A stretch of 64,000 nt of DNA from IMG/VR virus record IMGVR_UViG_3300034418_012737, positions 15,955 through 79,954 of that record; one strand, 5' to 3'. Below are positions 1 to 42,123 of the stretch, piece by piece. This stretch comes from a virus. The position numbers and the translations under genes were made by a program. Below the pieces are notes generated by a model. The model saw only the letters and a list, made by a program, of their open reading frames with translations, made no database searches and was not told where the DNA came from. How positions within the stretch are numbered: position 1 is the first letter of the stretch; each line of letters begins with the position of its first letter.

Positions 1-1129
1 AAGTATTTAATCCTGTTAAAGTATTAGCAGGGATATTAGCCCCAACCCCTCCCCCAGTAAGGTATCTTACAGTTAAAGTAGTATTTGAAGGAGCAATACC
101 ATAAGTTTTAGTGTATAAAAAATTAGAAGGATCATAAGCTGTAGTAAGCTTATTTCTAGTAACAGGAAGTCCTATACCTACATTTTCAGGGTTAGGAGTA
201 ATTTCTTCATCAAAGTCTTGAGTAGTACCTGCTCCAAATTGAAGTTGGAGGGTAGCAGATCCACTATTTAGATTATTGTTACTTACAAATCTTGAAACAA
301 ATCTTCTAGGAACTTTTTCTAAACTTAAAATATAGGGAACTTCACTATAATCAGATTGAGCATTAATGTCATTAGGAAAAGGATTAGTATTTTTAATTGT
401 ATTAAAAATTGTTTCTTGAGCTAGATAATCTACCTCTTTCCATTCATTCCCATCTGAATCATACACATCCAGGATTCCTATAAGATTTTGGTCTTGAATT
501 TCAAAAGTAGAAAATCTTTCTGGTTCCCCCGCCGAGAAATTAATACTAGCTATAGTTGCAGAGTACGCCTCTACTGTTTTTTTAAGTAAAAAACTTTGAG
601 GTGTATCACCTTCAATGGCATACACAGATACAATTGTAGGATCTAAAGAACTAGATTGACTAAAATCAACTACATTTTGTGTAATAAAATTTATATTAGA
701 TTCACCATCTGTTGTGATGCTAGTATTCTCAGGTATTATTAAGGAATAACTAAAATCAGGAATATCCCTACCTAGGGTAGGATTATATATTGCTGGAACT
801 ATTTGGAATATTTCAACTTCTGTAGTTGAAGGAGTGCTAACACTGGGTTTATACCCCATCATATAAGCTAAAGCATATAAATTATTTAATTGTTTAGCAT
901 ACTGTGTAAAATTTTCTTGAATTTGGTTATCTGTATAGAAGGCCATAATGTCTCCTACATAAGAAGCCATTTCTATAAACATAGTGCTAGGAGAAGCAGG
1001 ACTAAAATCTGTTACAGTATTAGGGAAATAAGTTTTAGCAAATTCTATCAGATTTGCTCTTAATTCTGTAAAGTCTCTATTTACATACTTAATATCCCTA
1101 TTAATTTTATTTTGGTTATTGTATCTCAT
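1..1129 (-). CDS. Baseplate wedge subunit, T4 gp6-like (runs off the left edge)
   Basis: Manual translation from ATG at 1129: MRYNNQNKINRDIKYVNRDFTELRANLIEFAKTYFPNTVTDFSPASPSTMFIEMASYVGD, a typical gp6 N-terminus; TAATG overlap with the gp25-like gene. Confidence 0.85.
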   Translation of the reverse strand, partial: MRYNNQNKINRDIKYVNRDFTELRANLIEFAKTYFPNTVTDFSPASPSTMFIEMASYVGDIMAFYTDNQIQENFTQYAKQLNNLYALAYMMGYKPSVSTPSTTEVEIFQIVPAIYNPTLGRDIPDFSYSLIIPENTSITTDGESNINFITQNVVDFSQSSSLDPTIVSVYAIEGDTPQSFLLKKTVEAYSATIASINFSAGEPERFSTFEIQDQNLIGILDVYDSDGNEWKEVDYLAQETIFNTIKNTNPFPNDINAQSDYSEVPYILSLEKVPRRFVSRFVSNNNLNSGSATLQLQFGAGTTQDFDEEITPNPENVGIGLPVTRNKLTTAYDPSNFLYTKTYGIAPSNTTLTVRYLTGGGVGANIPANTLTGLNT

Positions 1130-1554
1130 TAAACAATAATATTAAATTCAACGAATTCATTTAAACTATTAAAAACCGAGTAAAATATTTGAATTGTAAC
1201 TGTATGATATTCAGTATCAGGGATTACATTTATAGAGGTAACTTTTATTTGGGGAAATATTAAACTTACTTCTTCTTGTATTTGTCCTTTTAAAGTAGAT
1301 ATATTAAAATCATCTATTTGTTCAAATACAAAATTATTTATTACACTCCCAAAATTAGGATTAAAAATTCTTTCTCCTTTCATATGTAAAAAATAATTAA
1401 TAAGATTATATTTAATCTGTTCAGCAGTAGTATAATTTACCTTAAATAAGGAATCAGAACCTGAAGTAGGGGAGGCTAGGAAAGGTAAAGCTAGTCCTAT
1501 CCCAGTACTTTCTTGAAAATCTAAAGCAGGTATGTTTCCTATTTTAATACTCAT
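1129..1554 (-). CDS. Baseplate wedge subunit, gp25/GPW family
   Basis: QIKYNLINY..KGERIFNPNFGS...FEQ motif; adjacent to gp6-like gene. Confidence 0.9.
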   Translation of the reverse strand: MSIKIGNIPALDFQESTGIGLALPFLASPTSGSDSLFKVNYTTAEQIKYNLINYFLHMKGERIFNPNFGSVINNFVFEQIDDFNISTLKGQIQEEVSLIFPQIKVTSINVIPDTEYHTVTIQIFYSVFNSLNEFVEFNIIV

Positions 1555-10228: not shown

Positions 10229-11128
10229 TTAGTTATTAAAAGTATCTCCTTCTATAGAAGAAAAAATTTCGTTTATATCTATAACGCTAGTATCTATAAT
10301 AGGACATTCATGGGGGGTACCTGTAAAATTATAATCAAACAAATAACTATCAGGGAGATTAAAATCTTCAGGAAGGGAAGCTACTATATTATCATGCATA
10401 GTATAACCAAATATTTTAGGAGAAGTACCAAACCAAATTACTGTTGATTTCTTTTCTAAAGCAGCCGCGGCATGTTGTAAACAAGAATCTATTAGTACTT
10501 GTTTAGTAGAAAATAATAATAAAGAAAATAACTCCATATTACTCATGTTATTTGAAATAACTTCTACTCCTGGAAGGGCTTGTTCTGGTTTTCTACATAT
10601 TTGAATAATATGGTATTGTTCTTTATATCTTTCAACTAAAGCTAATCCCAACTCATAAGGCATATCTCTAGTCCATGAATAATTATAAGGTTGTTCTTGG
10701 AAAGGACCTCCATTAGTTTGGATTACCATTATAGGTTTGTTTCTAACCCACATTCTGTGTCCTTGTCCTGTTTGGACTGTATTAAAGACTATTTCAGGGG
10801 TCTCTCCTGTATAGTTTAAGTTGTATAATTTACACCAGTTTTCAATTAATTTTAACTTTTTATGGACATGATCCGTGGTAAAATAAGGTTCATGTTTAAA
10901 AATTAAACTATCTTGGTTTTTTATGTAATCTTGATAAAAATAGGGTGTATTGCCTACGCGATACACCCTATCTACATATTTTAAATTTATAAACACTTCA
11001 GGCCAAGCACATACAACTATTAATTCTCTCTCAGGATGATTTTTTTTAATACATTTAGCAACGGCTGTAGCTGCTACATGTTTCCCAAGTCCACCTTCAA
11101 TGTGAAATACTGAATAACTTTTTTCCAT
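10229..11128 (-). CDS. Glycosyltransferase family 9-like
   Basis: GGLGK..AAT N-terminal motif and IDSCLQHAAAAL...W C-terminal motif. Confidence 0.75.
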   Translation of the reverse strand: MEKSYSVFHIEGGLGKHVAATAVAKCIKKNHPERELIVVCAWPEVFINLKYVDRVYRVGNTPYFYQDYIKNQDSLIFKHEPYFTTDHVHKKLKLIENWCKLYNLNYTGETPEIVFNTVQTGQGHRMWVRNKPIMVIQTNGGPFQEQPYNYSWTRDMPYELGLALVERYKEQYHIIQICRKPEQALPGVEVISNNMSNMELFSLLLFSTKQVLIDSCLQHAAAALEKKSTVIWFGTSPKIFGYTMHDNIVASLPEDFNLPDSYLFDYNFTGTPHECPIIDTSVIDINEIFSSIEGDTFNN

Positions 11129-38323: not shown

Positions 38324-38551
38324 GTTAAAGTCATTACTTCGGAATGATGGTAAAATTTACCCCTCTTAAAATCTGCTTTTTTAATCCTACGGCCTTTACC
38401 AGCATCAGCCCTTTGTACAAAGTAATAAGGTCCTTCTCTATCATCATAGGCTACTTGGTTAATTTCAGCAGTAACAATATAATCATTACCCTTACGTGAG
38501 TCTGGGACTCGAACTTGTTCAAACATTTTCATTTTATAACTTATTTAGTTG

Positions 38552-38631
38552 TACCTAAGGTGGGACTCGAACCCACAAGCCGAAGCACTAGTTCCTAAGA
38601 CTAGCGTGTATACCAATTCCACCACTTAGGC
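38552..38631 (-). tRNA. tRNA-Leu(UAG)
   Basis: Anticodon arm CTAGT-CTTAGGA-ACTAG; GGTTCGAGTCC. Confidence 0.95.
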
Positions 38632-38640
38632 ATATGACCC

Positions 38641-38865
38641 TTAATGGGTCATCTTAGCCTCAGGCTTAACAGCTGCAAGACTATCAAGTAGATCACTTAC
38701 AGTTGTAATTGAGTCTGTATTAAAAGGTATTTCTACACCTGTAGTATCCCATTGAAGGCTATCAGTTGCACAGCTGTCAGTCATGGGTGTGGTACAGCAC
38801 TCGTCTTCGGTTCCTCCACAAGAGGTAAGAGCAACAATTGCTCCAATAAAAAATAGTTGTTTCAT
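38641..38865 (-). CDS. Putative lipoprotein
   Basis: MKQLFFIGAIVALTS-C. Confidence 0.7.
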   Translation of the reverse strand: MKQLFFIGAIVALTSCGGTEDECCTTPMTDSCATDSLQWDTTGVEIPFNTDSITTVSDLLDSLAAVKPEAKMTH

Positions 38866-38881
38866 CGTTTTATGTTTAAAA

Positions 38882-39085
38882 TTATTGAACAGGAGAAAGA
38901 GGAGTACCAGTTGTTAAATCATTTCCTGGGGTTCCGTCCATGTCTAAGGAATCCTTAGGGGGGATTGGGGGAGTAGAGTCTGCAGGGACAGCATTAGGAG
39001 GGGGTGCAGGGACTGTGTGGGGGTTATCAAATCCACAAGATGCAAGTAGGATTGTAAATCCTATAGTAAAAAATAGTTGTTTCAT
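38882..39085 (-). CDS. Putative Pro-rich lipoprotein (start corrected to MKQLFF)
   Basis: MKQLFFTIGFTILLAS-C; 25-nt repeat shared with the previous gene start. Confidence 0.7.
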   Translation of the reverse strand: MKQLFFTIGFTILLASCGFDNPHTVPAPPPNAVPADSTPPIPPKDSLDMDGTPGNDLTTGTPLSPVQ

Positions 39086-39287
39086 CGTTTTGTATTTTGG
39101 TTTGTTAAAATGTACCATGGTGGTACGTCTGATTTCTTTTTTGGTAGTTTTCTAAATGTTTGTACTTCGGGATAATTATACCCTTCATGTAGTAATCTAA
39201 CTGTTTTATCTTTGGTATTAATGTTAAGAACCTCTCCTTGGACCTCCTCGCCAAATAGAAAGAAATTTATAATATCTCCTACTTTCA

Positions 39288-39503
39288 TTACCAATCCCTT
39301 TGACATTGCTTACGGGGGACCCTAGCATATCTAGTACGAATCCCATTGTTATAGGAATTACCTCTTCCACTATACCTCATATGAGAAAATTTTCCATCAT
39401 TAGTAAAAACAGCAGATTGGGTTCTGCTATTGTAATAATAAGGAGAACAACTTGACAATCCAAGGGCAATAAATAACCCCAATAAGTAACTTAAATATTT
39501 CAT
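39288..39503 (-). CDS. Putative lipoprotein
   Basis: MKYLSYLLGLFIALGLSS-C. Confidence 0.6.
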   Translation of the reverse strand: MKYLSYLLGLFIALGLSSCSPYYYNSRTQSAVFTNDGKFSHMRYSGRGNSYNNGIRTRYARVPRKQCQRDW

Positions 39504-39520
39504 TTTTCAATAAATATTAG

Positions 39521-39594
39521 TAGGAGATACTGGATTCGAACCAGTGACCTTTCGGATGTAAACCGAATGCTCTAACCAACTGAGCTAATCTCCC
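39521..39594 (-). tRNA. tRNA-Val(UAC)
   Basis: Anticodon arm TTCGG-TTTACAT-CCGAA. Confidence 0.95.
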
Positions 39595-39599
39595 AATTG

Positions 39600-39834
39600 C
39601 CCCAGCCAGCGCTGAGGACTTGTCCGTCTGGTATCTCGTCGGACCACTGAGATTCTATATTCTAGGCTATAGAAAACCTAGTCTCCCATATTAGACTAAG
39701 GGTTATTATGGGGTGATGTCTGTTCCCCTCTCTGACCCCAAATGTAGGCCAACTGGGAATCGAACCCAGAGACATCGACTACTAGAATACTGCCATATCC
39801 GTTCGCACTTTTACCCCTTTCCCCCTGGCAGGGG
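39600..39834 (-). ncRNA. Circularly permuted tRNA-like (tmRNA-like) RNA with pseudoknots
   Basis: T-arm and acceptor 3' strand precede the acceptor 5' strand and a tmRNA-type D-loop; three potential H-type pseudoknots; terminal helix. Confidence 0.7.
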
Positions 39835-39840
39835 AGAAAT

Positions 39841-39917
39841 TGGAGCCACTAGCAGGATTCGAACCCGCGACCTGCTGATTACAAATCAGCTGCTCTAGCC
39901 AACTGAGCTATAGTGGC
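39841..39917 (-). tRNA. tRNA-Thr(UGU), CCA encoded
   Basis: Anticodon arm GCTGA-TTTGTAA-TCAGC. Confidence 0.95.
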
Positions 39918-39937
39918 TGCATTCGCCTCACACGCTG

Positions 39938-40010
39938 TGATCCCGGTCGGGCTTGAACCGACGACCCTTCCCTTAAAAGGGGAATGCTCTACCAGCTGAG
40001 CTACGGGATC
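39938..40010 (-). tRNA. tRNA-Lys(UUU)
   Basis: Anticodon arm TTCCC-CTTTTAA-GGGAA. Confidence 0.95.
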
Positions 40011-40013
40011 AAT

Positions 40014-40362
40014 AAATGAAGGAATGGGTAAAGAGTTATTCAGGCTCTTAAGCGCGACAAGCAGGCGGTTGTATTGGTAAATCATAATGGCACAAGAGGA
40101 GTGTTAAACCCGCATCCCATTAATTATTTCACTTCATGGCTGCTAACCCCAATTGAAGTTCACAATATCGCTTAGTAGAATTTAGTTCCACTATCACACA
40201 ACCACACACTAAATAAGCCCACCTCAACGGTTCTCACCTCTCACTAGCGCTTGCTAGTGAGTGAAGCTACTTATCAGCATGTGTACTTTATCCCCCTAAA
40301 CAAGGGACACATTCAGTCATACCCCCCCGTGCGTGATCAGCGCGGTGGGGTTTCCTTCATTT
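40014..40362 (-). ncRNA. Unidentified structured RNA (~349 nt)
   Basis: 11-bp terminal helix AAATGAAGGAA/TTCCTTCATTT plus at least six internal helices; fills the gap between two tRNAs. Confidence 0.7.
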
Positions 40363-40363
40363 G

Positions 40364-40437
40364 TAGGAACGGCAGGAATCGAACCTGCGACCTCCAAGAT
40401 ATAAGCTTGATGCTCTAACCAATTGAGCTACGTTCCC
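40364..40437 (-). tRNA. tRNA-Ile(UAU)
   Basis: Anticodon arm TCAAG-CTTATAT-CTTGG; discriminator A73. Confidence 0.9.
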
Positions 40438-40511
40438 ATATTGGTGCGTCATTTTATTACGCAGTGACGTCATCAGCGAATGCTATTTATTTCAGTATGT
40501 AAAGAACCTAG

Positions 40512-40585
40512 TACTCCCTACAGGAGTCGAACCTGTGACCCACAGCTTAGAAGGCTGTTGCTCTATCCAGCTGAGCTAAGGGAGC
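40512..40585 (-). tRNA. tRNA-Arg(UCU)
   Basis: Anticodon arm ACAGC-CTTCTAA-GCTGT; A20 in the D-loop. Confidence 0.95.
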
Positions 40586-40593
40586 ATATTTTG

Positions 40594-40678
40594 TAGCGCT
40601 GGGGGGACTCGAACCCCCACGGACCTACGGTCCAACAGATTTTAAGTCTGTCGTGTCTACCACTTCCACCACAGCGCC
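40594..40678 (-). tRNA. tRNA-Leu(UAA)
   Basis: Anticodon arm ACAGA-CTTAAAA-TCTGT; long variable arm. Confidence 0.95.
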
Positions 40679-40790
40679 ATATTTTTATTTTTTAATGTAC
40701 TTAAAGTAATTGTAAATATTGATAGGAATACAAACCCCAACCACAACTACATAAATAATAATCCAAACCTGATCTGTCATTTCTCTGCCT

Positions 40791-40858
40791 TAACTTTACC
40801 CCATGAATATACGAACCGAATTTTCAAATCCCACATTTTGGGATGACTTTAAGATGAC
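40791..40858 (-). promoter_or_regulatory. Promoter cassette copy upstream of the tRNA/ncRNA cluster
   Basis: TGAATATACGAA-N27-ATGAC-N6-ATGAC. Confidence 0.85.
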
Positions 40859-41163
40859 CTTCTTCTTCCTTTTTTAGGCTCAATACCCAACTGCCTTTCC
40901 AATTCACGCAACTCACGGTTCCGCTTGACTTTTTCCTTACCAACAGCAACCTGCTGTTTGCTAGGGACTCGGTCCTCCATCTCACCACGGAACTCCCTCA
41001 TGAACTCCTCGCAGTCACGGCGGTCCATTTTTCCGCCATAACGTACTGCCTCTTTATAATGCCTAGCAACAGCTTCAGCATTTCCAGTAATCATAGCATA
41101 GGCTAGTTCAGCCATTCTACCATGGTAGTTCCGCTTACGGCGGCGATTGTTGTGATCACGCAT
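40849..41163 (-). CDS. Basic hypothetical protein
   Basis: Arg-rich termini. Confidence 0.5.
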   Translation of the reverse strand: MRDHNNRRRKRNYHGRMAELAYAMITGNAEAVARHYKEAVRYGGKMDRRDCEEFMREFRGEMEDRVPSKQQVAVGKEKVKRNRELRELERQLGIEPKKGRRRSS

Positions 41164-41584
41164 TTTTCAGTTCTTTAATATGTTTACACTCTCTAGTTTT
41201 CGATCTCCATACTCCTGGGCAGTTACAACTAAATGTAATTTTTCCAGTGGGTAAAGTCACCTTACGTGCCTCATAGGTAATATCAGGATTACTCTTAGAA
41301 GTAAACTCCATAACTACCATATTTGGCTCTTTTAGCTTAACCTCAGGACGTTCCCATTTAATGTCACTCAATTTGGTTTCAGGATGTACCTCTGTCCAAG
41401 TGGGCATAATGTATTTTTTACCATCCATCACTATAAGTGAGGGGGGCATCCAATCATGTTCATGCTCATATGTTAAGCGTTGTACATTCACAAACTTGTG
41501 TCCTTTAGGTTTATACTTAAATTGTGAAGAATCTTGTACTACCTCTCGGTATTTACCATCTTCCCAAATTTGAAAAATCGCCAT
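41156..41584 (-). CDS. SWIM zinc-finger protein
   Basis: SCNCPG......CKHI. Confidence 0.75.
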   Translation of the reverse strand: MAIFQIWEDGKYREVVQDSSQFKYKPKGHKFVNVQRLTYEHEHDWMPPSLIVMDGKKYIMPTWTEVHPETKLSDIKWERPEVKLKEPNMVVMEFTSKSNPDITYEARKVTLPTGKITFSCNCPGVWRSKTRECKHIKELKNA

Positions 41585-41982
41585 TGCTTAAACTTATTCC
41601 ATAAATATAAGAATAAATTTTTAGGCTTCCCCGGTTTTGCTATGACGATTTTATGACTGACTTCTTTATCTTCCTTTTCTAATTGGTCTTCTAAAGTAAC
41701 CATCATACACATCCCATTAAGCATCATGGGGTAATAAGCCGCTACAAAGGCTAGATCTTCATCAGACATAGCCTCCATAGCCTGCTTAGCTGTCACTATT
41801 TGGGGGTCAACGCTTACCACGCTTACCACTGTAGTAATCTTCCAAGTCCTCTTCATCAGGAGGAAGGTAACCTGGTTTTTTGGGTTTTTTCTTCTTGCGC
41901 TCCTTATAAGCGGGAGACTCATGTTCCATAAAACGATCCCATTTTTGGAACGCATCTAACCTTTGGTGTGGGCTATTTTTGC

Positions 41983-42123
41983 TCATCGTCCTTGACCTTT
42001 ATAGGCTTTTTTATAGTTTTTAGAATTTTTACTTTTGCTGGTTTTTGTTTTAGCGTGAACACCAGGGCGGCTCACTTTGTTAATGCTAGGGGCAAAGTCT
42101 AATGCTCCAGTTTTTTTAGCCAT
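41983..42123 (-). CDS. Small basic protein (46 aa, not in the ORF track)
   Basis: MAKK...RPGVHAKTKTSK.K.SKNYKK.YKGQGR. Confidence 0.6.
   Translation of the reverse strand: MAKKTGALDFAPSINKVSRPGVHAKTKTSKSKNSKNYKKAYKGQGR

What the first reader, a model, noticed from the sequence alone, without database searches (positions are those of the whole stretch)
40014..40362. Second unannotated ~349-nt structured RNA flanked closely by tRNAs
Seen: the gap between tRNA-Ile (3' end 40364) and tRNA-Lys (5' end 40010) is closed by a perfect 11-bp helix AAATGAAGGAA/TTCCTTCATTT whose ends lie 1-3 nt from the tRNAs. Internal minus-strand helices include CTCACTAGC/GCTAGTGAG (40240-40261), ATGTGT/ACACAT enclosing CCCT/AGGG, CCCC-CCG/CGG-GGGG, TAGTGGAA/TTCTACTA, ACTTCA/TGAAGT and AAGAG/CTCTT. 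It is GC-richer than the coding DNA and has no credible ORF. Known: large RNAs of unclear function (GOLLD, ROOL) occur beside phage tRNAs but are longer. Inference: tRNA processing would release this RNA as a discrete species, co-expressed with the permuted RNA.
Basis: partly seen in the sequence, partly recalled or inferred. Interest (0 to 1): 0.78.

Follow-up and report, generated by a model that had tools for sequence, protein, structure and literature searches.

The report
Enlarged manA-type RNA among phage tRNAs
The 352-base gap between two tRNA genes of this uncultured phage is a real, conserved, folded non-coding RNA: its front half is a distant, enlarged relative of the phage 'manA' RNA, which a 2026 preprint reports to build RNA-only cages, its back half is new, and it looks like a stand-alone RNA cut out by tRNA-trimming enzymes, not a gene switch.

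Summary
Window 40011-40362 (minus strand) lies between tRNA-Ile(UAU) and tRNA-Lys(UUU) and is closed by a perfect 11-bp helix. It has no ORF and folds better than shuffles (z -3.6). I found about 45 full-length homologues (29 distinct) in IMG/VR and freshwater, estuarine and marine metagenomes. All sit in the same tRNA slot, one copy per genome.

On the 29-sequence alignment 99.4% of cells pair. Twelve pairs in seven helices change on both sides, against 0-3 in slid controls.

No Rfam family reaches threshold. However, manA (RF01745) gives repeated full-length sub-threshold hits on nt ~17-197. A model of that part finds genuine cyanophage manA RNAs in return, and chance loci carrying the shared motif score nothing. 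The 3' ~150 nt and the closing helix match nothing known.

Contigs from four metatranscriptome studies tile the RNA. In three of them the flanking ORFs are not covered.

Best reading: a stand-alone, enlarged manA-type RNA excised by tRNA processing and acting in trans, possibly by self-assembly, as a 2026 preprint reports for manA. Its function is unproven.

This scan noted the same family before in another genome, and noted other enlarged manA-like RNAs in other phage tRNA arrays.

The parts
40011..40362 (-). Whole RNA gene, 352 nt (RNA position p = 40363 - p). It fills the gap between tRNA-Ile(UAU) and tRNA-Lys(UUU).
   Evidence: About 45 full-length homologues, 29 distinct. Covariation.
40352..40362 (-). 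P1 5' strand, AAAUGAAGGAA (RNA 1-11). The inner 8 bp are conserved.
   Evidence: Pair A6-U changes to G-C in 10 of 29 sequences.
40014..40024 (-). P1 3' strand, UUCCUUCAUUU (RNA 339-349). It ends 3 nt before tRNA-Lys.
40166..40346 (-). manA-like core (RNA ~17-197). In order: a hairpin with loop UGAUCAC, a G-run, UAUGACUGAAUGUG, a hairpin, UAAAGU, a long stem enclosing two hairpins, GGUUGUGUGAU, a hairpin with loop CUAAA, and AGCGAUA.
   Evidence: Rfam manA sub-threshold full-length hits. Model R2 built from this part hits genuine manA RNAs. Negative control.
40321..40351 (-). H2 hairpin (RNA 12-42), ACCCC-A-CCG-C-GC / loop UGAUCAC / GC-A-CGG-G-GGGGU. The inner part corresponds to manA P1.
   Evidence: invariant; only C-to-U changes that keep G-U pairs.
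40308..40321 (-). Invariant single-stranded block UAUGACUGAAUGUG (RNA 42-55). It matches the manA consensus UGaCUGAAUAA.
40289..40309 (-). H3 hairpin (RNA 54-74), UGUCCCU/AGGGGGA.
   Evidence: The C-G pair changes to U-A in the homologues (CG in 7, UA in 21 of 29). It aligns to the manA hairpin after CUGAAUAA.
40203..40283 (-). H4 long stem (RNA 80-97 with 141-160). It encloses H5 and the GNRA hairpin.
   Evidence: Two pairs change on both sides and six on one side.
40240..40261 (-). H5 hairpin CUCACUAGC-AAGC-GCUAGUGAG (RNA 102-123).
   Evidence: Four pairs change on both sides.
40229..40238 (-). Small GNRA-capped hairpin GGU-GAGA-ACC (RNA 125-134). The loop is GAAA, GAGA, GUAA or GGAA in homologues. 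The hairpin is deleted in 9 of 29.
   Evidence: 12-nt gap in 9 sequences.
40193..40199 (-). Long-range helix P5, 5' strand GUGUGAU (RNA 164-170).
   Evidence: It pairs with 40052-40058. A-U changes to G-C in 8 of 29 and U-G to C-G in 1.
40052..40058 (-). Long-range helix P5, 3' strand GUCGCGC (RNA 305-311).
40173..40193 (-). H6 hairpin UAGUGGAA-CUAAA-UUCUACUA (RNA 170-190).
   Evidence: It remains a hairpin with the same loop in all variants, although the 5' strand differs.
40025..40165 (-). New 3' domain (RNA 198-338): H7 (40124-40165), H8 (40085-40122), a conserved 26-nt single-stranded stretch (40059-40084) and H9 (40031-40049, loop CCUGAAUAA).
   Evidence: Model R1 of this part finds one copy in each RNA-bearing phage record. 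It finds nothing in 86 manA loci, in five more distant relatives, or in the loci (GTDB genome contigs and IMG/VR loci). H8 and H9 have covarying pairs.
40363..40437 (-). Upstream tRNA-Ile(UAU), with no encoded CCA. Its 3' processing would set the RNA's 5' end.
39937..40010 (-). Downstream tRNA-Lys(UUU). RNase P cleavage at its 5' end would set the RNA's 3' end.
   Evidence: A tRNA-Lys follows within 1-9 nt in every locus with enough flank.

Best explanation
This is a stand-alone structured non-coding RNA gene of an uncultured aquatic phage, probably T4-like. It is an enlarged member of the manA type.

How it most likely works:
1. It is transcribed inside the tRNA operon (inferred).
2. It is cut out by the host's tRNA-processing enzymes (inferred from geometry). 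3' trimming of the CCA-less tRNA-Ile sets its 5' end 0-1 nt before helix P1. RNase P cleavage at tRNA-Lys sets its 3' end 3 nt after P1.
3. The covarying P1 helix clamps the two ends (pairing and covariation shown; the clamping role inferred).
4. Nucleotides ~17-197 fold like a manA RNA: a hairpin, a G-run, the invariant UGACUGAAU internal-loop module, and a multi-stem domain with a GNRA hairpin (shown at the level of sequence and secondary structure).
5. A new ~140-nt domain replaces manA's short 3' end. It comprises the long-range helix GUGUGAU/GUCGCGC, three hairpins and a conserved single strand (shown).
6. The released RNA acts in trans during infection. By analogy with manA, which a 2026 preprint reports to assemble in vitro into 8-, 10- and 60-subunit RNA-only shells through kissing loops and a GNRA-receptor contact, its most likely mode is self-association. 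The extra domain would add interfaces or a binding site (inferred, not shown).

My odds: real structured RNA 0.95; homology of the 5' part with manA 0.75; release as a discrete RNA 0.7; self-assembly 0.3.
For: - Structure: 29 distinct homologues. 99.4% of cells pair. Twelve pairs in seven helices change on both sides, against 0-3 when the partners are slid. 0 of 500 shuffles reach the observed score.
- Strand: 14 of 86 pairs are mainly G-U and would be A-C mismatches on the other strand.
- Non-coding.
- Fixed slot: tRNA-Ile(UAU), or an Ile-like element, lies upstream and tRNA-Lys(UUU) lies 1-9 nt downstream in more than 40 loci. One copy per genome.
- manA link, forward: manA is the only notable Rfam hit. 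It is full-length on three family members: 13.6, 18 and 21.2 bits, with E = 0.0016 in a 347-nt search of 4227 families.
- manA link, reverse: model R2 of our 5' part puts its best hit on the genuine manA of 5 of 6 cyanophage loci. It scores 28.6, 28.3 and 21.4 bits on IMG/VR manA loci.
- Control: 10 loci that carry TGACTGAATGTG...AAAGTA by chance score nothing.
- Precedent in genuine manA: the S-SSM7 copy is followed at once by tRNA-Gly. In 4 of 71 IMG/VR manA loci a tRNA-Asn or tRNA-Gly starts right at the manA 3' end.
- Expression: six metatranscriptome runs from different studies hold the RNA. Contigs of four studies tile 40014-40336. In three of them nothing covers the flanking ORFs. In the fourth, a 323-nt contig has depth 22.9 against 2-7 for ORF contigs.
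- Self-assembly of manA: Ren et al., bioRxiv 10.64898/2026.07.01.735769.
Against: - All manA scores lie far below Rfam's gathering score of 55.2 bits.
- Much of the reverse score rests on one short shared block, and the manA test loci were chosen through that block.
- manA's closing helix (GGGAG with CUCCC at the 3' end) has no partner at the equivalent place here.
- The multi-stem domain has two inner hairpins, not three. The third hairpin, if it is the L7 kissing partner of the preprint (my own reading of the helix numbering), is missing.
- The GNRA hairpin is deleted in 9 of 29 sequences, so it cannot be essential.
- The palindromic UGAUCA loop occurs in only 5 of 63 canonical manA P1 loops, so it is not a family-wide dimerisation signal.
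- Expression data are assembled contigs picked because they hold this RNA. They show no ends, no strand and no level, and one contig bridges into tRNA-Lys.
- No host or cultured phage is known.
- The cage result is an in vitro preprint and says nothing about biological function.
Confidence: 0.55

Rival explanations
1. A new RNA family unrelated to manA. The shared UGACUGAAU block and the hairpin order would be convergence or chance, and the function would be something else: a protein-binding scaffold or decoy (for instance against host defences that target tRNAs), or a ribozyme.
For: manA scores are 13.6-21.2 bits against a cut-off of 55.2. The closing-helix partner and one inner hairpin of manA are missing. 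Half of the RNA matches nothing. The RNA sits next to tRNA-Lys(UUU). From my own knowledge, not tested here, that tRNA is a classic target of anticodon nucleases.
Against: Six sequence blocks are shared in the same order, with hairpins in the same places. The hits are reciprocal. Chance carriers of the shared motif do not score. manA was the top family of 4227 for this RNA.
Confidence: 0.2
2. A cis-acting element, such as a riboswitch or processing regulator, as first proposed for manA. It would control transcription into, or RNase P processing of, tRNA-Lys and the genes behind it.
For: manA is filed as a cis-regulatory riboswitch candidate and mostly lies upstream of genes (PMC2864571). The invariant internal-loop module looks like a ligand pocket. 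The G-run has two candidate partners, the 5' CCCC and the 3' UACCC, so it could switch between them (my reading).
Against: Only 3 nt separate P1 from tRNA-Lys, so there is no room for an expression platform. The element is closed on itself by a covarying end-to-end helix. It has a tRNA on both sides. RNA contigs cover the element but not the downstream ORFs in three studies.
Confidence: 0.1
3. Non-functional spacer, a decayed tRNA or tmRNA, or a remnant of a mobile element.
For: Phage tRNA arrays do hold decayed tRNAs. An aberrant tRNA-Ile-like element lies upstream of this RNA in L072 and L046.
Against: 91% mean column identity with long invariant blocks. Compensatory changes in seven helices. 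The hairpin tips alone vary. No tRNA, tmRNA or intron model matches at E<=10.
Confidence: 0.02

Closest known systems
manA RNA motif (Rfam RF01745; Weinberg et al. 2010, PMC2864571; cryo-EM preprint Ren et al. 2026, bioRxiv 10.64898/2026.07.01.735769)
   Same: An aquatic phage RNA. The order of elements is the same: a 5' hairpin (loop GAYS), a G-run, UGACUGAAU, a hairpin with a GAUUUAGG-like loop, UAAnGUA, a multi-stem domain with a GNRA hairpin, GUUGU, and ACUAAAUU..AGCGAU. Some genuine manA RNAs also end exactly at a tRNA 5' end.
   Different: Ours is about 350 nt, not about 190. All scores are below Rfam's threshold. An end-to-end helix P1 is added. manA's P5 hairpin and its 3' closing strand are replaced by a ~140-nt domain with a long-range helix. 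It has two inner hairpins, not three. It lies between two tRNAs, not at the 5' end of a promoter-proximal transcript upstream of a gene (one search shows -10-like boxes just before canonical manA). The host phage is not a known cyanophage.
GOLLD and ROOL (large ornate RNAs of phages and prophages; cryo-EM in bioRxiv 10.1101/2024.12.08.627333)
   Same: Large, intricately folded RNAs of unknown function, carried by phages. By my own recollection they are often next to tRNA genes. They are reported to form RNA-only multimers.
   Different: No sequence or structure match to either Rfam model even at E<=10. Ours is roughly half their size. It is found in freshwater, estuarine and marine phages.
Phage T4 stable RNAs, species 1 and 2 (rnaC, rnaD) in the T4 tRNA cluster (my own knowledge; not tested here)
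   Same: Small stable RNAs of unknown function, encoded within a T4-type phage tRNA cluster and matured with the tRNAs.
   Different: The T4 RNAs are about 120-140 nt. No similarity was tested or seen. The blastn search of GenBank phages with our RNA found nothing.
queA RNA motif (Rfam RF03093)
   Same: A weak local resemblance: AUGAAG, a hairpin, then ACUGAAUGUG..UAU.
   Different: 12 bits, E = 9.4, and truncated. This is not significant. I treat it as a lead only.

Membership tests
manA RNA motif (RF01745) | Score at or above Rfam's gathering threshold (55.2 bits) | tested here: not met
   13.6 bits (window), 18 and 21.2 bits (L101 and L055). Nothing at gathering level or in the whole-record search.
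manA RNA motif (RF01745) | 5' hairpin P1 followed by a G-rich strand and the conserved UGaCUGAAUAA block | tested here: met
   CCGCGC-UGAUCAC-GCACGG, then GGGGGUAUGACUGAAUGUG. These are invariant in 29 sequences and align to the model.
manA RNA motif (RF01745) | Hairpin after CUGAAUAA, closed by UAAgGu (the internal-loop module) | tested here: met
   H3 UGUCCCU/AGGGGGA followed by UAAAGU. One pair covaries.
manA RNA motif (RF01745) | Multi-stem domain with three hairpins, the middle one GNRA-capped | tested here: inconclusive
   H4 encloses only two hairpins: H5 (loop AAGC) and a GNRA hairpin (GAAA, GAGA, GUAA or GGAA). The GNRA hairpin is absent in 9 of 29 sequences.
manA RNA motif (RF01745) | Closing helix GGGaG with CuCCC at the 3' end of the element | tested here: not met
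   The model's 3' strand aligns to UAAAC, with mismatches. Possible partners of the G-run (CCCC at RNA 13-16, UACCC at 333-337) are invariant, so pairing cannot be tested.
manA RNA motif (RF01745) | Reciprocal detection: a model of the candidate finds genuine members | tested here: met
   R2 hits genuine manA in 5 of 6 cyanophage loci and in L176, L147 and L146 at 28.6, 28.3 and 21.4 bits. The chance-motif control is negative. E-values are rough, and the test loci were chosen through the shared motif.
manA RNA motif (RF01745) | Position in the 5' UTR of a protein-coding gene (cis-regulatory reading) | tested here: not met
   tRNAs lie on both sides in all loci. About 6% of genuine manA loci also precede a tRNA.
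manA RNA motif (RF01745) | Self-assembly into closed RNA-only oligomers (preprint) | not testable with these tools
   This needs in vitro transcription and native gel, SEC or cryo-EM. The preprint was read.
GOLLD / ROOL | Match to the Rfam covariance models | tested here: not met
   No hit at the gathering threshold or at E<=10.
tmRNA / RNase P RNA / group I intron | Match to the Rfam or ARAGORN models | tested here: not met
   None reported at E<=10. ARAGORN finds no tmRNA.

The most novel reading that the evidence does not exclude
After excision from the tRNA precursor, this RNA self-assembles in infected cells into an RNA-only multimer or shell built on the manA core. The phage-specific 3' domain would supply new inter-subunit contacts or a docking site for cargo, such as the co-transcribed tRNAs or a host factor. 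The manA type as a whole would then be a class of phage-made RNA compartments and not riboswitches.
Probability: 0.2. Interest if true: 0.85.

Novelty: new variant of a known kind. Interest (0 to 1): 0.6.

Why it matters
manA has been an orphan 'riboswitch candidate' since 2010. In 2026 it was reported to form RNA-only cages in vitro, with no known biology.

This natural version differs in ways that bear on that question. It is twice as long and closed by its own end-to-end helix. It sits wall-to-wall between two tRNAs, and it turns up in environmental RNA data from several studies. Together these points argue that manA-type RNAs are stand-alone products released by tRNA processing, not switches for a downstream gene.

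It also provides concrete material for experiments:
- a defined construct (tRNA-Ile, RNA, tRNA-Lys) for RNase P and RNase Z processing assays;
- a defined RNA for assembly and cryo-EM work;
- a new ~140-nt domain whose role can be tested by deletion.

The family is missing from Rfam, so phage annotation pipelines currently leave this gene blank.

Tried and rejected
- blastn of the RNA against 50,697 GenBank phage records found nothing. tblastn of the neighbouring protein also found nothing, so there is no cultured relative.
- Rfam at the gathering threshold returned only tRNAs.
- tmRNA, RNase P RNA, group I intron, HEARO, GOLLD and ROOL were considered and rejected: no model hit at E<=10.
- The 3'-domain model R1 found nothing in five more distant relatives, three of them near-complete ~150-kb genomes. 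It found nothing in the 22 loci (six GTDB genome contigs that matched a loop pattern by chance, plus IMG/VR loci) or in 86 manA loci.
- A second manA-like core in the 3' domain or in the neighbouring 39595-39840 gap: none.
- Two further IMG/VR pattern scans added no new family members.
- The palindromic UGAUCA loop as a family-wide kissing-dimer signal was rejected. Only 5 of 63 canonical manA P1 loops have it; most are GACG.
- 'The RNA is more conserved than its neighbours' holds only in part. RNA identity to the window is about 92% in L002, L005 and L007, while the adjacent gene ranges from 78 to 97%. Conservation is mosaic.
- Circular or joined ends: the joints reported by read laying link tRNAs to each other, not the two RNA ends.
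- Parts of the window without RNA contigs are not evidence of silence (tool caveat).
- The supplements of PMC10690425 are not held, so I could not check whether that IMG/VR survey already lists this RNA.
- One preprint from the search list could not be opened.
- Consensus promoter and terminator scans near the array gave nothing above chance.

Full report
**The observation**

ARAGORN and Rfam place tRNA-Ile(UAU) at 40363-40437 and tRNA-Lys(UUU) at 39937-40010, both on the minus strand. They belong to an array that also holds Leu(UAA), Arg(UCU), Thr(UGU), Val(UAC) and Leu(UAG).

The 352 nt between them (40011-40362) begin with AAAUGAAGGAA and end with UUCCUUCAUUU followed by AUU. The repeat finder confirms an 11-nt, 100% complementary pair of arms at 40014-40024 and 40352-40362. 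It also confirms the 9-bp hairpin at 40240-40261.

As RNA, the stretch folds at -114.1 kcal/mol against -94.8 ± 5.3 for dinucleotide shuffles. That is z = -3.62, and none of 100 shuffles folded as well. It is GC-richer than most of the flanking coding DNA. No ORF is conserved, variable columns show no 3-base periodicity, and indels are of 1, 2 and 12 nt.

**Homologues and context**

The window is a fragment of an IMG/VR virus record: 79,954 bp, about 47% complete. The RNA has no match in GenBank phages.

I found homologues in two ways:
- through the neighbouring 142-aa protein;
- through exact 16- to 18-mers of the RNA, searched in IMG/VR and JGI metagenome contigs.

nhmmer then found about 45 full-length copies, 29 of them distinct.

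In every locus with enough flank the RNA sits in the same slot:
- Upstream is tRNA-Ile(UAU), 0-8 nt away.
- In three loci the upstream neighbour called by ARAGORN is tRNA-Met(CAU), 88-90 nt away. In the two I inspected (L072, L046) the gap holds an aberrant tRNA-Ile(UAU)-like element that ARAGORN does not call.
- In one locus an extra 96-nt hairpin-closed element lies in between.
- Downstream is tRNA-Lys(UUU), 1-9 nt away.

There is one copy per phage record.

A more distant relative that shares the neighbouring protein but lacks the RNA encodes a T4-type major capsid protein and portal. The carriers are therefore probably T4-like phages of about 150 kb.

Sequencing runs that hold the RNA come from freshwater, estuary, salt-marsh and marine samples.

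**Structure**

The 29-sequence alignment (A3) has long invariant blocks, with variation concentrated in hairpin tips. RNAalifold gives 86 pairs in ten helices.

Counting those pairs:

| Measure | Observed | Control |
|---|---|---|
| Cells forming standard pairs | 99.4% | 43-52% when the 3' partners are slid by 1-3 columns |
| Pairs with changes on both sides | 12 | 0-3 in the slid versions |
| Shuffles reaching the covariation score | 0 of 500 | - |

The covarying pairs lie in:
- P1 (A-U changes to G-C in 10 sequences);
- H3;
- the long stem H4;
- H5 (four pairs);
- the long-range helix GUGUGAU/GUCGCGC (A-U changes to G-C in 8 sequences);
- H8;
- H9 (two pairs).

Fourteen pairs are mainly G-U, which fixes the minus strand as the RNA strand.

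A small hairpin keeps a GNRA loop while its sequence changes (GAAA, GAGA, GUAA, GGAA). It is deleted in nine sequences.

There, ACACAU pairs with GUGUGU as the base of H4.

H2 and H7 never vary, so they are only compatible with pairing. The same holds for two candidate tertiary pairings: AGCAG of the H7 loop with CUGCU, and the G-run with either CCCC or UACCC.

**What it is**

No Rfam family reaches its threshold. With permissive settings the only match inside the RNA is manA (RF01745, gathering score 55.2 bits):

| Sequence | manA score |
|---|---|
| Window | 13.6 bits |
| L101 | 18 bits |
| L055 | 21.2 bits |

Each hit spans the full model and falls on RNA nt ~17-197. In a search of L055's 347 nt against all 4227 families, manA is the top hit at E = 0.0016.

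The alignment shows the same order of elements: a hairpin, a G-run, UGACUGAAU, a hairpin, UAAnGU, a multi-stem domain with a GNRA hairpin, and a hairpin with an AAAU-containing loop.

I tested the reverse direction with a covariance model of our 5' part (R2):
- With filters off, its best hit in five of six cyanophage loci lies exactly on the genuine manA (E 0.001-0.15 in 24 kb).
- Among 80 IMG/VR manA loci it scores 28.6, 28.3 and 21.4 bits on three, and all five hits with E<1 are at the manA site.
- Those alignments add two further shared blocks, GUUGU and AGCGAU.

These loci were chosen through a 16-mer that shares UGACUGAAU with our RNA, so I ran a control. Ten IMG/VR loci that carry TGACTGAATGTG...AAAGTA by chance score nothing with R2.

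I therefore hold the 5' part to be a distant manA homologue, with odds of about 0.75.

It fails membership by Rfam's score. It also lacks manA's 3' closing strand at the equivalent place and has one inner hairpin fewer.

The 3' ~140 nt match nothing. Model R1 finds only the family itself, and there is no second manA core.

**What manA is known to be**

Weinberg et al. 2010 described manA in marine metagenomes, T4-like cyanophages and two gamma-proteobacteria. It lies mostly upstream of genes, and they filed it as a riboswitch candidate (PMC2864571).

A preprint of July 2026 (bioRxiv 10.64898/2026.07.01.735769) reports by cryo-EM that manA RNAs assemble in vitro into RNA-only octamers, decamers and a 60-subunit icosahedral shell. 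The assemblies are built from pentamers held by kissing loops and a GNRA-receptor contact. The preprint shows no biological function.

I learned of this preprint from earlier notes of this scan and then read it myself.

Genuine manA is not always a 5' UTR element:
- In Synechococcus phage S-SSM7 it is followed at once by tRNA-Gly.
- In 4 of 71 IMG/VR loci a tRNA-Asn or tRNA-Gly starts 176-188 nt after the motif, which is right at the manA 3' end.
- Elsewhere it precedes ORFs.

**Expression**

Twenty public runs hold the sequence. Six are metatranscriptomes from different studies.

I laid the contigs of four of them on 38400-42000:
- RNA-library contigs tile 40014-40336.
- In three runs no contig covers the flanking ORFs.
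- In the fourth, a 323-nt contig lying wholly within the RNA has depth 22.9, against 2-7 for ORF contigs.

These are assembled contigs chosen because they hold this RNA. They give no ends, strand or level. One contig bridges into tRNA-Lys, and no joint links the two RNA ends. I count this as a weak hint of accumulation.

**Mechanism**

Shown: a conserved multi-helix fold, a fixed position wall-to-wall between two tRNAs, ends clamped by a covarying helix, and a manA-like core joined to a new domain.

Inferred: the RNA is co-transcribed with the tRNAs. RNase P at tRNA-Lys and 3' processing of the CCA-less tRNA-Ile release it with nearly flush, base-paired ends. It then acts in trans.

Speculative: it self-associates as manA does in vitro.

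Against a cis-regulatory role, only 3 nt lie between P1 and tRNA-Lys, which leaves no room for an expression platform.

**Novelty and prior notes**

The family is absent from Rfam 15 and I did not find it in the literature I could search. It is a new, enlarged variant of a known kind.

Notes of this scan show that the same family was examined earlier in another genome, as a 348-nt version. There it was called unmatched or possibly manA-like. Other enlarged manA-like RNAs have been seen in other phage tRNA arrays.

I reached the manA link from Rfam before reading those notes. I add the reciprocal-model test and its negative control.

Noticed in passing
window 39595-39840 (-): The 246-nt gap between tRNA-Thr and tRNA-Val holds a perfect T-arm-like element and a weak tRNA hit (39745-39816, 15.8 bits, E = 5.8). 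As a whole it folds no better than shuffles (z -0.38). ARAGORN finds no tmRNA, and model R2 finds no manA-like core there.
   Followed up: partly
L072 ~10474-10561 (-) and L046 ~1117-1204 (+): Between tRNA-Met(CAU) and the RNA lies an 88-nt tRNA-Ile(UAU)-like element. It has an acceptor stem, an anticodon arm with UAU and a T-arm, but an aberrant middle. ARAGORN does not call it. It may be a non-canonical or decaying tRNA-Ile.
   Followed up: partly
L092 5518-5613 (+): An extra 96-nt element lies between tRNA-Ile and the RNA. It is closed by its own terminal helix, AAAUGAGAGU/ACUCUCAUU, which resembles P1 of the main RNA. It may be a second small processed RNA.
   Followed up: no
L121 1460-1780 (Synechococcus phage S-SSM7, GU071098.1 ~151320-151640): A genuine manA RNA (123.6 bits) has a sigma-70-like promoter just upstream and tRNA-Gly(UCC) starting 1-2 nt after its 3' end. 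The GenBank record annotates a hypothetical protein over it. In addition, 4 of 71 IMG/VR manA loci (L131, L148, L159, L174) have a tRNA-Asn or tRNA-Gly at the same distance.
   Followed up: partly
window 40036-40043 (-), loop of H9: The loop CCUGAAUAA contains CUGAAUAA, the exact 8-mer of the manA consensus core. This is a second copy of the CUGAAU block found at RNA 47-52. Its meaning is unknown.
   Followed up: no
window 40438-40510 (-): The 73-nt spacer between tRNA-Arg and tRNA-Ile is 92-100% identical in L002, L005 and L007. That is as conserved as the tRNAs themselves, so it may hold another small element.
   Followed up: no
window 40685-40780 (-): A 31-codon ORF with a hydrophobic core (MTDQVWIIIYVVVVGVCIPINIYNYFKYIKK) ends just upstream of the first tRNA of the array.
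   Followed up: no
L127-L206 (IMG/VR manA loci), 30 nt upstream of GGGAGTGACTGAATAA: Most canonical manA RNAs are preceded by a -10-like TATAAT or TATACT box a few bases before the P1 hairpin, so they seem to start at the very 5' end of their transcripts. The P1 loop is mostly GACG.
   Followed up: partly
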